Shown: positions 7,171 through 63,759 of the stretch, piece after piece
Position numbering within the stretch: the stretch's first letter is position 1
Layout: each line of letters opens with the position of its first letter
Source of the DNA: a virus
DNA: 64,000 nt
Virus record (IMG/VR): IMGVR_UViG_3300031521_000039
Coordinates: 1-64,000 of that record
Reading direction: 5' to 3' (one strand)
Program-made: the position numbers and the translations under genes
The notes under the pieces: model-generated
Databases searched by the model: none
Seen by the model: only the letters and a program-made list of their open reading frames with translations
What the model was told of the DNA's origin: nothing

Positions 7171-9224
7171 ATGGCAGAATATAAAAATAGTATTCGTTTA
7201 GGAATTGCTTTAGAAAATGAAAAAGATGTTAATGGAAGACTACAAACTTTAATAAATACGTTAGAAAAAAATAAAATAAATTTAGATATAAATATTGAAA
7301 ATTCAGATGTTGCTAAACAATTAGAAGCATTGACTAATTTGGCAAATAATTTTAAAAATAGTTTAGGTGGAAAAGTATCATTAGGGAATATTAATGAAAT
7401 AATAAATCAAACCGTTGTACAGGCAGAAAAGTTAAATGGAGAATTACAAAAAGTTTCTAGAACCGATTTAGGAAATGGTCTGTATAAACAAACTGAGTTA
7501 GTAGCAACAGGACTTGGAGAAATTACTAAACAAACTGGAACTGTTCAAAAAATAGGGGATGAATTTAATTATACAGGAAGTGCTGTTCGTACGGCTACAT
7601 CAGATTTAGTCGGATATGATAATGCTTTATTAAAAATAGAAAAAGCACAATCATCGTTATCTAGTTTAAAGTTAGTAGACCAAAATAAAGTTTCGAATTT
7701 ATCAAGCAACTTAAATGCTAATGATATAGGTTCTAATAATGAACTAAAAAATCTATTGAATCAAGTTAAAGAGTTAGAGAATGAAGAAAAGAAGTTACAA
7801 CAAATACAAACCCAAGCATATTCAGAAATGGCTGTTTTGCAAAAAGAAGAATACTCACTTAAACAAAATCTAATTACCGCTGATGGTACTTATAAAAGTG
7901 AATTAGAATCTAGACTTGTGACAGTTAATCAATTAAAATCCGCACAACAACAAAATATACAGGATAATAATTTAACCAATCAGCAAAAAGAACTTGAGTT
8001 AACAAATCAACAAGTTAAATTACAAGAACAACTAAATCAAGCTAGAGCTAAACAGACAGATGTAAGTAATTCTAATGATTTAAAAACTCTTCAACAAGAA
8101 CAAGAATTATTACAAAAACAAGAACAAGCATATCAACAAATTAATGTATTGAAAGCTAATGGTGTTATTAATACATCTGAAATAAGCAAGCTTCAAGAAT
8201 TAGTACGAAGTGCATCATCAATAAAAGAAATAAATAGTGCATTAAGTTCTATAGGCACATCTACAAGTAGAGAAAGTTCTATTAGCACATTAACTAAGCA
8301 AATACAAGAAGCACAAGTAAAATTGGAGCAAATGAAATCTACGTTTGGCTCGAAATTACCTAGTGGTTTTATTTCGTCTACAGAAGCTGAATTAAATAAA
8401 CTATTAGCAGATTTAAAACAAGTAGATGGTACTAATTTTACAGGAATAAAGAATAGTTTAAATTCTGTAAATTCTAGTATGAAGCAAACAACAAGTGAAA
8501 CTCAACAATTAGTTAGTTCATTAAACCAAGCTGGTGGAAGTTCATTTTTTAGTAGTATGAGTAATTTTTTAGGAAAAATCGGAGTGTTTTATGGAGTTCA
8601 ACAAGTAGTTCAAGAAATAACAAGTCAGCTTAAAAGTGCTGGTGAATATACTTTAGTAATGGATAAGGCATTCACAAATATGCAAATGATAACAGGAAAG
8701 TCAAAATCTGAAATCGGTAGTTTAGTAAATGATTATAAACAACTAGGAGAACAATTACATACTACAAATGTAGAGATGATGGGTGGGATGGAAGAAATCA
8801 CAAGAGCAGGTATTCAAGGAGATGAAGGAAAATCACTTATGTCTTCTGCAATTATCGGTTCTAAAATTTCTGGACAAACCACTGAACAAACAACGCAACA
8901 ATTAATTGCTATTAAAAATGCTTTTGATATGACTGGTCAAAGTATGCAAAATGTTGTTGATATGATAAGTAAGATGGATAACGTGAGTGCATCGAGTTTT
9001 GCAGAAATTTCTACAGCTATACAAAGAACAGCATTCAGTGCTCAGGAGGCAGGAACTCCATTATCTAACTTAATCGCATATATTACGACTGTATCCGAGA
9101 AAACGCGTAAATCAGCTTCAACTATAGGCGAGAGTTTTAAAACAATCTACTCAAGATATAGTAATATCAAACTTGGGAACTTAGATGATGATGGGAAAAA
9201 TATTAATGATACCGAACTTGCCAT
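7171..9224 (+). CDS. tail tape measure protein, exon 1
   Basis: Coiled-coil N-terminus and TP901-type TMP core (IDKMDNVSASS..EKTRKSASTIGESFKTIYSRY); splicing joins GCC AT to G AAT AGA. Confidence 0.9.
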
Positions 9225-9512
9225 AAACTACAACTTGTGGCTTAATGGAGTAATCCATTTCGAATAACTCGCTTAATACGGGGAAGGCTAAATCTTTAAA
9301 AAGACATGCTAACCTACCGTGCTAAATTATTCTATATAAATAAATTATAGAATATAAAAGCCTAACGACTATTCCTTCGGGAAGTACGCATAAGTATGCG
9401 GAAATGGTGAGTCTCCTATTTAGGAGAGTGATATAGTCTAATCTTATGGGAAATCATAAGCAGTTCATTAGAGAACGGTATAGGAGTTAACGAACCTATA
9501 TGAATATAAATG
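9225..9512 (+). ncRNA. group I self-splicing intron (IA-like, no ORF) in the tape measure gene
   Basis: P1 GCCAT/GTGGC with U-G at the 5' splice site; P3 ACTCGC(9267)/GTGAGT(9407); P7 GACTA(9367)/TAGTC(9434); P7.1/7.2 stems; terminal G 9512; removal restores DTELAMNRIGIAIR in frame. Confidence 0.92.
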
Positions 9513-54631: not shown

Positions 54632-55015
54632 TTAGAAATCGAGCCTAGTGATAGCCTTATTCTTAGAACGCATACTAGTTAAAATAAGATATAATTCACT
54701 TGATTTTCTAATACCAGCAATCTTTTGACATATATCAGTCATTATTATTTGTTTTATACCAATTGAGTTTTCAAGAATGTCTCTTTCATGACAATATATT
54801 TGACATTGAACTCCATCTTCATTGAAATAGTAATATTTATCAACAATTTCCTTTTTATCTTTCTTAATTTCAGAGTTAAATTTTTTAAAAGTATTTGAAA
54901 TATCAATAAGAACTTCATCAATATTTCTTATATCTCCATTTGGTAGATGAGTTACAATATTAATTTTAGCTAGAACATCTTGTACATGTATTTATTTTAA
55001 AACTAATGCTAACAT
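54632..55015 (-). pseudogene. TMP-core-like mini gene with an in-frame TAA at codon 8
   Basis: ATG overlaps dUTPase stop; MLALVLK*IHVQDVLAKINIVTHLPNGDIRNIDEVLIDISNTF...IAGIRKSSEL, open for 119 further codons. Confidence 0.55.
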
Positions 55016-61120: not shown

Positions 61121-62038
61121 TTATTTCGCTTCAATAAATTCTATACTACCAACTATATTTCCAGCTTTAAATTCTTTATATGATTTGAATAATTTAACCT
61201 TCATTATTCTATCATGTGAAAGTTCCCCTACGCCTCCTATTATTTTTACACCACCACATCCCATTACAAAAGCTTTATTATACGAATTTCTTGCAATTAC
61301 ATTTTCTCCAGTATATACATTATTTATATATGTTTTTACGGTATCGCCAATATGTAATGGTATTAAATCAATATCTACTATTCCAGCATCTTCTCCCACA
61401 ATACTTTCTTCAAACATTTTTAGAGTAAGTTTAACTTTATTTTCTTTTAGATACCATTTACCTTCTTGCAAAGCCTTATGAGAATTACTATACTTTGATA
61501 ATACTTCTAAGATTTTATTAAATGTGCCATTGAAATTATTATCTCTAAACTTTAACATAAATTCTGCAAATTGATTTTCATTTACTATATCACATACTTT
61601 AGCAAAAGATATAGATTCTTCATCTAATTTTATATATGTAGTATTTAGCCATCTTTCACAAAAAATGATTGGTGCTAATTTATTTTCTTTTACAACAGAG
61701 ATATGTTTATTCTCACCTCCACTTATTTGTAATATGTTTTCTGATTTTGTATCTTTAAATTTTGTTCCTTCCTTAAAATTTAATATTTCTGATAATTTGT
61801 ATATATCGTTTGTATTGTCATATGCAATTTCATCATTATCGTCATCAACAAACCATCCTAAATCATAAGTATGTTCTTCTCCAATATCATCTAAAATTGT
61901 AACTAAAGTGTTGAATCTATTATATTTATAAAATTCTGCTTTAATAATCGTATGTGACTTCTTTCCAGTAAGTGGTGTTCCTTGATATATTAAATTTTTA
62001 CCTACTAATTCTTTTCTTATTTTATCTGTTATTATCAT
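61121..62038 (-). CDS. hypothetical protein
   Basis: 305-aa ORF, SD AAGGAG. Confidence 0.7.
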   Translation of the reverse strand: MIITDKIRKELVGKNLIYQGTPLTGKKSHTIIKAEFYKYNRFNTLVTILDDIGEEHTYDLGWFVDDDNDEIAYDNTNDIYKLSEILNFKEGTKFKDTKSENILQISGGENKHISVVKENKLAPIIFCERWLNTTYIKLDEESISFAKVCDIVNENQFAEFMLKFRDNNFNGTFNKILEVLSKYSNSHKALQEGKWYLKENKVKLTLKMFEESIVGEDAGIVDIDLIPLHIGDTVKTYINNVYTGENVIARNSYNKAFVMGCGGVKIIGGVGELSHDRIMKVKLFKSYKEFKAGNIVGSIEFIEAK

Positions 62039-62101
62039 TTTTCATTTTCTCCTTTATATTTAGTTATATTAATTTGTTAAATTTCAGTTAAAACTATTCT
62101 T

Positions 62102-62215
62102 TTATTTATTCATAACTCTAGCATATATACTTTTCAATGAATTTGCTATTTTTAAACTATTCTTATATGTAGAATTAGATAATAATTGTAATGCTTCTAA
62201 TTTAGTTATATTCAT
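62102..62215 (-). CDS. 37-aa peptide with TMP-like motif (MNITKLEALQLLSNSTYKNSLKIANSLKSIYARVMNK)
   Basis: Translated by hand; SD AAGGAAG; own promoter TTGACT-17-TATTAT. Confidence 0.65.
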   Translation of the reverse strand: MNITKLEALQLLSNSTYKNSLKIANSLKSIYARVMNK

Positions 62216-62283
62216 TTAATTCACTTCCTTTCATTTACTATAATATACCAACTAAGTTTTAAAGTCAATGTACTTTTATTAAT

Positions 62284-62874
62284 TTATTTAACTATATATC
62301 CTTTTACTTTCTGAACTCCTAATTTAGAAATACGTTTAGAGTATTCTCTATCGCTTTCACCATATTCTCTTTCTATAAATACATCTAGTCTTGTATCTAT
62401 TGCAAAATGTTTATTACTTCCTTTATCATTTACAATAACCTGTCCATATCTTTCTAGGTATATTTGAGTATTTTGTGGTATTACATTATTTGCAACTCCA
62501 CCTCGACTAAGTTTTTTACCTTGACTTGTTATTGATCCATAACCATTTTCTGAATTCATAGAACTATAAAATGTTAATACAAATTCTTGCCATTGTGGTT
62601 CAATCTTCTTTTGTTTTTCCAACTCTTTTTCTTTTTGTAATTTTAATTCTTCACCTTTCTTTTTCTCTAGTTCTATTTTATCTCTTTCATATTGTTCTTG
62701 CATTGGATTAATTAATAATCCAAATTTATCAGTTTTTAGTACCATTTCTTTTGCATTAACTTGTTTTTCAGCTATCTGCATTGCATTATTGTGAAATGGT
62801 GTTTGGTGTGTACTATATGTAGATAATAACAATGTTGTACTAAGTACACAGACAATCCTCTTTCCTTTTAGCAT
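62284..62874 (-). CDS. 3D-domain (MltA-like) exported protein
   Basis: LTFYSS..TSQG..VANNVIP.NT..VNDKG..RLDVFI; N-terminal signal. Confidence 0.75.
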   Translation of the reverse strand: MLKGKRIVCVLSTTLLLSTYSTHQTPFHNNAMQIAEKQVNAKEMVLKTDKFGLLINPMQEQYERDKIELEKKKGEELKLQKEKELEKQKKIEPQWQEFVLTFYSSMNSENGYGSITSQGKKLSRGGVANNVIPQNTQIYLERYGQVIVNDKGSNKHFAIDTRLDVFIEREYGESDREYSKRISKLGVQKVKGYIVK

Positions 62875-62895
62875 TTAATCAGCTCCAATCTTATG

Positions 62896-63759
62896 TTATT
62901 TTTTAATCATAGTTATAGCTTTTTCTGTTTCATTTGCAATCTCTACTGTGTTATTAGCAAGTTCTTGAACCGCTGAACTAGTTTGTTCCATACATGCACT
63001 TACTGAAATCATTCCATCATTTATTCCTTCTATACGTGATATTCTAAGTACATTACTTTCTTTGAGTTTCTTACTATTTTCTTTACCTGTTTCAGTTTTT
63101 TTAAGAATAATATTAGCTGTAACTTGTAAGTCTTCTACAATTTTACTAATCATTGTACTTGAGTTTTTAGTTTCTTCTGCAAGTTTTTTAACTTCATTAG
63201 CTACAACTGCAAACCCTTTGCCAGCATCTCCTGCTCTTGCAGACTCTATACTTGCATTTAGCGATAAAAGATTAGTTTGATTAGCTATTTCTTTGATTAC
63301 ATTTGTTATTTTAGAAATATCTTTCATTTTTACATATAATTCATTTGCATTATTATAGTTGTCAACATTATCATTATGGAATACTTCCATAATTCCACTA
63401 TTATTTTTTGCACTCTCATATGCAAGATTAACTTCTGAAGTAATATGAACTATATTTGATGTTACTTCTTGTATAGTAGCACTTATTTCTTCAACTGAAC
63501 CTGCTTGACCGGTAATAGTATTGTTGATAGTTTCTATTTCTGTAAGTATATTTTTACCTACTTTATTTGTTGATTTTTTATATTCTTCGAATTCTTTATC
63601 TTTACTAATTAAAGTTGTATGTAGTTCTTTATTTTTTAATTCTAGTTCTTTGATTTTATTATCACTTTCTAGTTTAAGTGTTTTTAACTTGTTGTCCATT
63701 TCCTTTTCTAAAGATTCTCTTAGTTCTTGTAGTCCTTTTGTATTTTTAAATATTTTCAT
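62896..63759 (-). CDS. soluble methyl-accepting chemotaxis signalling-domain protein
   Basis: [38 protein letters not shown]; no TM or sensor domain. Confidence 0.9.

What the first reader, a model, noticed from the sequence alone, without database searches (positions are those of the whole stretch)
62102..62268. Unannotated 37-aa promoter-proximal peptide copying the TMP IGxSxKxIYxR motif
Seen: a gene missing from the ORF track, with its own TTGACT-17-TATTAT promoter and SD, ends in KIANSLKSIYARV. This aligns with TIGESFKTIYSRY in this window's TMP (~9121-9159), the conserved core just upstream of the intron. Inference: a TMP mimic that could decoy a TMP-sensing defence or block the membrane partner used in DNA injection (superinfection exclusion).
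Basis: partly seen in the sequence, partly recalled or inferred. Interest (0 to 1): 0.7.

Follow-up and report, generated by a model that had tools for sequence, protein, structure and literature searches.

The report
Small phage protein resembling tape-measure core
A conserved 37-residue early protein of a peat-soil Clostridium-type giant phage resembles one helix-turn-helix unit of the most conserved part of phage tail tape measure proteins, which could make it a molecular mimic, but its function is untested.

Summary
A 37-codon ORF lies at 62102-62215 (minus strand) with a strong Shine-Dalgarno site and TTGACT-17-TATTAT upstream. The tape measure protein (TMP) motif is at 9121-9159, about 60 nt before a confirmed group I intron.

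The ORF looks like a real gene. Three 38-aa homologues exist (54-59% identity). One lies in a different gene context in a second 194-kb phage, with the ribosome site and about 33 nt after the stop conserved; dN/dS is 0.36.

The likeness to this phage's own TMP is at chance level (6/13 identities; shuffled peptides score as well). Against a profile of 25 TMP cores it is not. The peptide is the best non-TMP single-domain hit among 7,496 six-frame ORFs of three related phages (17.7 bits, E 9e-4; decoy maximum 8.7). No random 37-mer of 200,000 reached it, and hhalign gave P 1.6e-6. Matches fall on the TMP's most conserved columns, and homologues keep I, K, IY and R.

A second early protein family in the same two phages matches the adjacent TMP segment (E 1.7e-5 for the second phage's copy).

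The decoy or exclusion role is untested, though conserved-core TMP sensing (Avs18) is now documented. Earlier scan notes on this genome had flagged both TMP-like genes.

The parts
62240..62268 (-). Sigma-70-like promoter hexamers, TTGACT-17 nt-TATTAT, in the 68-nt gap after the 3D-domain gene.
   Evidence: 10 of 12 matches, not above chance by count. An abundant relative in peat runs keeps 62235-62301 with 7 differences; the 5 listed all lie outside the hexamers, and a different gene follows.
62221..62231 (-). Shine-Dalgarno site AAAGGAAGTGA, 5 nt before the ATG.
   Evidence: A similar site (AAAGGAGAGTGA) precedes the G002 homologue.
62102..62215 (-). 37-codon gene (P0001) for a basic (net +5) protein predicted to be helical; the stop is at 62102-62104.
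   Evidence: Homologues P0009-P0011. dN/dS 0.36 and codon-position differences 12/6/14. AlphaFold2 gives a helix over residues 5-36, pLDDT 83.
62108..62179 (-). Codons 13-36, the part that aligns with TMP-core profile positions 140-164 (end of one helix, turn, motif helix).
   Evidence: hmmsearch 17.7 bits; hhalign probability 90%, P 1.6e-6.
62069..62101 (-). About 33 nt after the stop that are conserved with the G002 copy; no hairpin or terminator.
   Evidence: Alignment; folds; no terminator-like site.
9121..9159 (+). TMP motif TIGESFKTIYSRY in exon 1 of the tape measure gene (7171 to about 9222).
9220..9460 (+). Group I intron core interrupting the TMP gene. The whole intervening sequence runs from about 9223 to about 9512, and exon 2 continues to 13404.
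   Evidence: RF00028 at 67.2 bits; exon 2 resumes with NRIGIAIR; intact homologues read straight through.
54635..54991 (-). Open frame of a second family that resembles the TMP segment just after the intron site. The window copy has no usable start codon.
   Evidence: 39% identity to a clean 130-aa G002 ORF, E 6e-19. Against the downstream TMP profile the G002 copy scores 22.4 bits (E 1.7e-5) and the window copy 10.5 bits (E 0.064).

Best explanation
SHOWN. The ORF is a real small gene of an orphan family with 4 known sequences in 2 clades, found only in peat-soil, 26-27% GC, Clostridium-type large phages. It travels as a unit of about 170 bp (ribosome site, ORF, about 33 nt after the stop) and sits among early or replication-side genes in two phages, in different neighbourhoods. 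Residues 13-36 match, at profile level, one helix-turn-helix unit of the alpha-helical-repeat core of tape measure proteins (PF10145). The matches fall on that core's most conserved columns. INFERRED. The peptide descends from, or has converged on, one repeat unit of the TMP core. It most likely works by competition: as a soluble cytoplasmic mimic of that unit, it would occupy a surface that normally recognises the conserved TMP core. The most plausible partner is a host sensor of the TMP core (Avs18-like or SNIPE-like), which it would blunt. The next most plausible is the core of TMPs from incoming rival phages. It may act together with the second TMP-core-like early protein.
For: Gene reality: strong ribosome site and intact frame in 4 sequences; dN/dS 0.36 with the fewest changes at codon position 2; the ribosome site and 3' flank are conserved while the neighbours differ. 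TMP likeness: a profile of 25 TMP cores scores P0001 at 17.7 bits. That is the second-best hit of 686 window ORFs (E 8e-5), and 0 of 200,000 composition-matched random 37-mers reach it (maximum 14.1). Across 7,496 ORFs (413,000 aa) of three phages it is the best non-TMP single-domain hit (E 9e-4), and the G002 homologue scores 11.0. Reversed and shuffled decoys reach at most 8.7. hhalign of family against family gives P 1.6e-6. The signal survives when the profile is built from subsets of the TMPs. Natural TMP variants IGNSLKSIYSR and IGNSLRSIMARV nearly equal the peptide's IANSLKSIYARV. The TMP's near-invariant S286, T289, G297, R306 and N309 align with peptide S13, T16, G24 (3 of 4), R33 and N36 (1 of 4). 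A second family in the same two phages matches the adjacent TMP segment, and the complete related phage G001 lacks both. The TMP core model is a confident helical repeat, pLDDT 80-93, with one unit about the peptide's length. Precedent: SeAvs18 is activated by a central conserved helical TMP segment (PMC13581612), and SNIPE binds TMPs (PMC13190303).
Against: There are no functional or expression data, and no RNA run was listed. The pairwise match to this phage's own TMP is at chance level. In the reverse direction, the peptide profile against window ORFs puts the TMP only third, at E 0.21. Pfam's own PF10145 model gives no hit even at E up to 10. A search of 1.84 billion proteins found no TMP at E up to 0.001. 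If roughly 100 protein families could have been tested this way, the family-wise E-value is about 0.1 for the peptide alone. DNA identity to the TMP motif region is about 50%, so there was no recent copying. The most conserved part of the family is residues 5-19, which only partly overlaps the TMP-like part. Avs sensors use extended interfaces, so a 24-residue mimic may bind too weakly. The family has only 4 members, and the co-occurrence rests on 3 genomes. The window copy of the second family lacks a start codon.
Confidence: 0.38

Rival explanations
1. It is a real small early protein with an unrelated role, for example a regulator or inhibitor of some host or phage protein. On this reading the TMP likeness is convergence or luck between short amphipathic, N-capped helices in AT-rich proteomes.
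For: The pairwise match to the phage's own TMP is at chance level. The reverse profile search is not significant (E 0.21). There is no Pfam hit and no TMP hit in the database-wide search. The best-conserved block, KLE.L.L.SNSTY.N, is largely outside the motif. Another motif resemblance from the same reader was judged chance by an earlier follow-up.
Against: Decoy-calibrated profile scores lie 9 bits above all decoys. hhalign gives P 1.6e-6. The matches concentrate on the TMP's near-invariant columns. A second family in the same phages hits the neighbouring TMP segment at E 1.7e-5.
Confidence: 0.33
2. It is a tail-assembly accessory. The peptide would bind this phage's own TMP core or its chaperone to keep the TMP soluble, or to time tail assembly, rather than act in conflict with hosts or rival phages.
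For: It has the same TMP-core likeness as above. One repeat unit could cap or complement a helical-repeat solenoid.
Against: In both phages it lies far from the tail genes, on the opposite-strand early or replication side: next to MCP-like and 3D-domain genes here, and near a Sak4-like gene in G002. The complete relative G001, whose TMP is 65-81% identical, lacks it. It is nearer to other phages' TMP variants than to its own.
Confidence: 0.1
3. It has no function of its own: a chance ORF, a decaying remnant of a TMP fragment, or a leader ORF that only tunes the 305-aa gene downstream.
For: It is very short, the family is rare, and there is no terminator between it and the next gene. The site is variable: an HNH endonuclease gene occupies it in L002, and other genes follow the 3D-domain gene in G001.
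Against: Frame, length, start, stop and ribosome site are kept at 54-59% identity in different contexts with different downstream genes. dN/dS is 0.36.
Confidence: 0.12

Closest known systems
PF10145 (PhageMin_Tail, TP901-family tape measure core)
   Same: Residues 13-36 align with profile positions 140-164 of a core profile built from this TMP clade, and they share the near-invariant S, T, G and R columns.
   Different: The peptide covers only about 24 of some 200 domain positions. It fails the Pfam model, lies outside the tail module, and has no coiled coil or hydrophobic segments. It is not a tape measure protein.
Avs18, a STAND sensor of the conserved central helical TMP segment (PMC13581612), and SNIPE, a TMP-associated membrane nuclease (PMC13190303)
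   Same: Both show that TMPs are immune targets, and for Avs18 the target is the conserved core. That is the premise of the decoy reading.
   Different: They are host defences studied in Proteobacteria. No phage inhibitor that mimics the TMP is described in the passages read, and no such sensor was looked for in this phage's unknown host.
Superinfection exclusion proteins that act on TMP-mediated DNA entry: Ltp of TP-J34 (PMC3952083) and HK97 gp15 (from my own knowledge)
   Same: They are phage-encoded proteins outside the structural module that interfere with a step depending on the TMP.
   Different: [quoted passage not shown] HK97 gp15 is a membrane protein. This peptide has no signal peptide, lipobox or membrane segment, and it resembles the TMP rather than binding it by charge.
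Mobile small-gene cassettes and morons of large phages (from my own knowledge; for example the promoter-early stem-loop modules of T4-type phages)
   Same: A short gene with its own ribosome site and flank is found at different places in related genomes. A promoter module is reused in front of a different gene in a relative.
   Different: There is no terminator or stem-loop boundary here.

Membership tests
PF10145 tape measure core | Reaches the Pfam gathering score for PF10145. | tested here: not met
   No Pfam family for any of the 4 members at E up to 10; the phage's own TMP scores 68.6 bits.
PF10145 tape measure core | Covers most of the roughly 200-residue helical-repeat domain. | tested here: not met
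   Only profile positions 140-164 are matched.
PF10145 tape measure core | Local sequence likeness to the conserved motif helix above chance. | tested here: met
   17.7 bits against a decoy maximum of 8.7; 0 of 200,000 random peptides reach it; hhalign P 1.6e-6.
Ltp-type superinfection exclusion lipoproteins | Signal peptide with lipobox, and repeat domains exposed on the cell surface. | tested here: not met
   The sequence read directly has no hydrophobic N-terminus and no cysteine.
Membrane superinfection exclusion proteins or type I toxin peptides | A hydrophobic membrane-spanning segment. | tested here: not met
   The peptide is polar and basic, with 5 K, 1 R and 1 E and no run of hydrophobic residues.
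Secreted phage signalling propeptides (AimP or Phr type) | An N-terminal secretion signal and an adjacent receptor gene. | tested here: not met
   There is no signal sequence. The neighbours differ between the two phages and none has a family match of that kind.
Anti-defence decoy or mimic proteins | Binds and blocks a host immune sensor. | not testable with these tools
   No complex prediction or assay is available. Only precedent exists for TMP-core sensing.
Moron-like mobile cassette | Own promoter and own terminator flanking the gene. | tested here: inconclusive
   The promoter-like site is present and its hexamers are unchanged by the 5 listed of 7 differences in a relative. There is no terminator.

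The most novel reading that the evidence does not exclude
The peptide, possibly together with the second TMP-core-like early protein, is a counter-defence or exclusion factor built from a single repeat of the tape measure core. Expressed early, it would occupy the TMP-binding site of a host sensor (Avs18-like or SNIPE-like), or poison the TMP core of incoming rival phages. It would be the first described phage protein that mimics a piece of a tape measure protein.
Probability: 0.2. Interest if true: 0.8.

Novelty: new variant of a known kind. Interest (0 to 1): 0.5.

Why it matters
Two 2026 papers show that bacteria sense or exploit the tape measure protein, one of them through its most conserved helical core. 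No phage answer to that sensing appears in the passages I read. A 37-residue natural fragment-like copy of that core, expressed from the early side of a phage genome, is a concrete and cheap candidate to test. If it works, it would add structural-protein fragment mimicry to the known anti-defence or exclusion strategies. If it does not, it remains an ordinary orphan small phage gene.

Tried and rejected
- **Query too short.** The search for homologous proteins and the search for related loci refuse a 37-aa query.
- **Searches with no match.**
  - tblastn of the peptide against 50,697 phage records.
  - Pfam and PHROGs, apart from one phrog hit at E 0.25.
  - ESM Atlas by features.
  - PDB sequences, for the peptide and for the TMP.
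  - A relaxed peptide DNA pattern in 185,579 species genomes; in IMG/VR it found only G002.
- **Spurious hit.** P0008 (986 aa) is a low-complexity repeat protein with no aligned stretch.
- **Other mini-TMP genes.** A search for proteins of 41-132 aa with the TMP segment returned only broken TMP pieces.
- **Recent DNA copying from the TMP gene: rejected.** Identity over the aligned codons is about 50%.
- **A link between the TMP intron and the peptide: rejected.** Nothing connects them, including the HNH endonuclease gene that sits at the peptide's site in L002.
- **Hairpin or terminator after the gene: none**.
- **Rfam: no RNA family at the locus**.
- **Expression.** No RNA holder was listed. 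The laid DNA contigs showed no variant inside the ORF.
- **Peptide structure.** AlphaFold2 gave one long helix rather than a hairpin, which says little for so short a chain with 4 sequences.
- **More members of the second family.** None found in IMG/VR beyond G002.

Full report
**What is there.** The window is the first 64 kb of an 85-kb IMG/VR virus record with 27% GC, estimated 34% complete. Runs holding this DNA are all peat metagenomes. Its TMP's nearest named relatives are Clostridium prophage proteins.

On the minus strand the gene order is:
- a soluble MCP-signalling-domain protein (62896..63759);
- a secreted 3D-domain-like protein (62284..62874);
- the 37-codon ORF (62102..62215);
- a 305-aa protein of unknown family (61121..62038).

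The ORF has an ATG start. AAAGGAAGTGA lies 5 nt upstream, and TTGACT-17-TATTAT lies in the 68-nt gap before it. By count, such promoter-like sites are not enriched in this AT-rich stretch: 30 were found against 27.6 in shuffles. However, an abundant relative in three peat runs keeps 62235-62301. It has 7 differences, and the 5 that are listed all fall outside the hexamers. Beyond that module it continues with a different ribosome site and gene. I take this as mild support that the module is a working promoter.

**Is it a gene?** An exhaustive phmmer search of 1.84 billion representatives found one 38-aa relative, P0009 (57% identity, E 8e-4). Its cluster holds two more members, P0010 and P0011.
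- The four sequences align end to end without gaps inside, and 19 columns are invariant.
- P0009 lies in G002, a 194-kb IMG/VR phage, among small genes near a Sak4-like annealing protein. None of its neighbours has a relative in the window's phage.
- G002 does have the MCP-like and 3D-domain pair, but 22 kb away from its peptide gene.
- The DNA alignment shows that the ribosome site, the ORF and about 33 nt after the stop are shared. The sequence further out is not shared.
- Between the two copies dN/dS is 0.36, and changes by codon position are 12/6/14.
- At the syntenic spot a metagenome relative (L002) carries an HNH endonuclease gene instead. The complete 196-kb relative G001 (terminal repeats present) has other small genes there and no copy of the peptide anywhere.

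I conclude that this is a real, rare, mobile small gene, with about 85% confidence.

**Is the TMP likeness more than chance?** My first test said no. The stated alignment has 6/13 identities and BLOSUM62 score 29. The peptide's best 13-mer match in the window is elsewhere (score 32), and shuffled peptides reach 32.4 +/- 2.8.

Then I saw that other TMPs of this clade read IGNSLKSIYSR, VGNSLRTIYAR and IGNSLRSIMARV at this position. The peptide reads IANSLKSIYARV. I therefore built a profile of 25 TMP cores and tested it several ways.
- It scores the peptide at 17.7 bits over residues 12-36.
- This is the second-best hit among 686 six-frame ORFs of the window (E 8e-5), above the TMP's own exon 2.
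- None of 200,000 composition-matched random 37-mers reaches it; the maximum is 14.1.
- Over three phage genomes (7,496 ORFs, 413,000 aa) it is the best non-TMP single-domain hit (E 9e-4). The G002 peptide scores 11.0.
- One reversed and five shuffled decoy sets never exceed 8.7 bits.
- hhalign of the peptide family against the TMP alignment gives 90% probability and P 1.6e-6 for columns 13-36 against 141-164.
- The signal persists with profiles built from subsets: GESFK-type TMPs only 12.8 bits, distant TMPs only 9.0, the phage's own TMP only 8.9.
- The peptide's S13, T16, G24 (in 3 of 4 members), R33 and N36 (in 1 of 4) fall on near-invariant TMP columns.

Evidence against the likeness:
- the reverse search, peptide profile against window ORFs, places the TMP third at E 0.21;
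- Pfam's broader PF10145 model finds nothing;
- at database scale no TMP reached significance;
- allowing for the roughly 100 families one might have tried, the family-wise E-value for the peptide alone is near 0.1.

**An independent second case.** The same profile work turned up a clean 130-aa ORF in G002 (L013 13146..13538, minus strand).
- It scores 22.4 bits (E 1.7e-5) against a profile of the TMP region just after the intron site. The reversed-decoy maximum there is 9.3.
- Its homologue in the window is the frame 54635-54991 (39% identity, E 6e-19). This copy scores 10.5 bits (E 0.064) and has no usable start codon.
- An earlier first-reader note had flagged this window frame.
- G001 lacks both families.

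Two unrelated early-side families in the same two phages each resemble adjoining pieces of one domain. That is hard to put down to luck, and it raises my estimate that the likeness is real to about 60%.

**What part of the TMP is it?** AlphaFold2 models the core of an intact homologue (P0016, residues about 140-415) with pLDDT 80-93. The model is a run of helix-turn-helix units. Its nearest solved folds, all weak (E at least 0.009), are alpha/alpha toroids, mTERF and TALE repeats. The peptide corresponds to the end of helix 275-289, the turn, and helix 293-312. That is about one repeat unit, and the unit is roughly the peptide's own length. The motif lies 61 nt before a group I intron.

**How it may work.** The peptide is basic and polar, with no secretion signal or membrane segment, so it should act in the cytoplasm. 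The literature I read shows that a STAND sensor, SeAvs18, is activated by a central, most-conserved helical segment of TMPs of about 130 residues (PMC13581612). It also shows that the SNIPE nuclease associates with TMPs during injection (PMC13190303). Ltp, by contrast, binds the TMP's C-terminal end from outside the cell (PMC3952083).

The best-supported mechanism is therefore competitive mimicry of one TMP-core repeat. The target would be either such a sensor or the cores of incoming TMPs. This step is inference only. I found no expression data, and I could not run complex predictions.

**Verdict.** The gene is real. The proposed function is plausible and untested.

Noticed in passing
window 9220-9460 (intervening sequence about 9223-9512): The group I intron in the TMP gene scores 67.2 bits in the permissive Rfam scan. 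The default gathering-mode scan of the whole window missed it (0 matches). It carries no ORF. G001's TMP breaks at the same point.
   Followed up: partly
window 54635-54991 (-); L013 13146-13538 (-): A second early-side family resembles the TMP core segment just after the intron site (G002 copy E 1.7e-5, window copy E 0.064). The window copy has no start codon. In both phages it lies next to a dUTPase-type gene.
   Followed up: partly
L002 3341-3928: In a metagenome relative, an HNH/NUMOD-type homing endonuclease gene sits exactly where the 37-aa gene sits in the window, between the 3D-domain gene and the homologue of the 305-aa gene's N-terminal domain.
   Followed up: no
window 62284-63759 (-): The pair of a soluble MCP-signalling-domain protein (PF00015, 3e-32) and a secreted 3D-domain-like protein (phrog_9810) is conserved in G001 (82% and 64% identity) and in G002 (61% and 47%).
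   Followed up: no
window 62235-62301 and the joint 62301 to 62825: A high-depth relative in peat runs X4, X7 and X8 joins 62301 to 62825, so it lacks most of the 3D-domain gene. It keeps the promoter module and follows it with a different gene beginning ATG TGG GAA.
   Followed up: no
G001:C1:144340-144915 (+): A 192-aa ORF in G001, the phage that lacks the peptide, has a C-terminal stretch (ISEAFKSI) that matches the same TMP motif region at 10.2 bits. That is just above the decoy maximum of 8.7.
   Followed up: no
P0016 residues about 140-415 (model mf9fde2f98026): The PF10145 TMP core is predicted with high confidence as an alpha-helical repeat solenoid. No solved structure matches it by sequence, and only weak matches appear by fold (designed toroids, mTERF, TALE).
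   Followed up: partly
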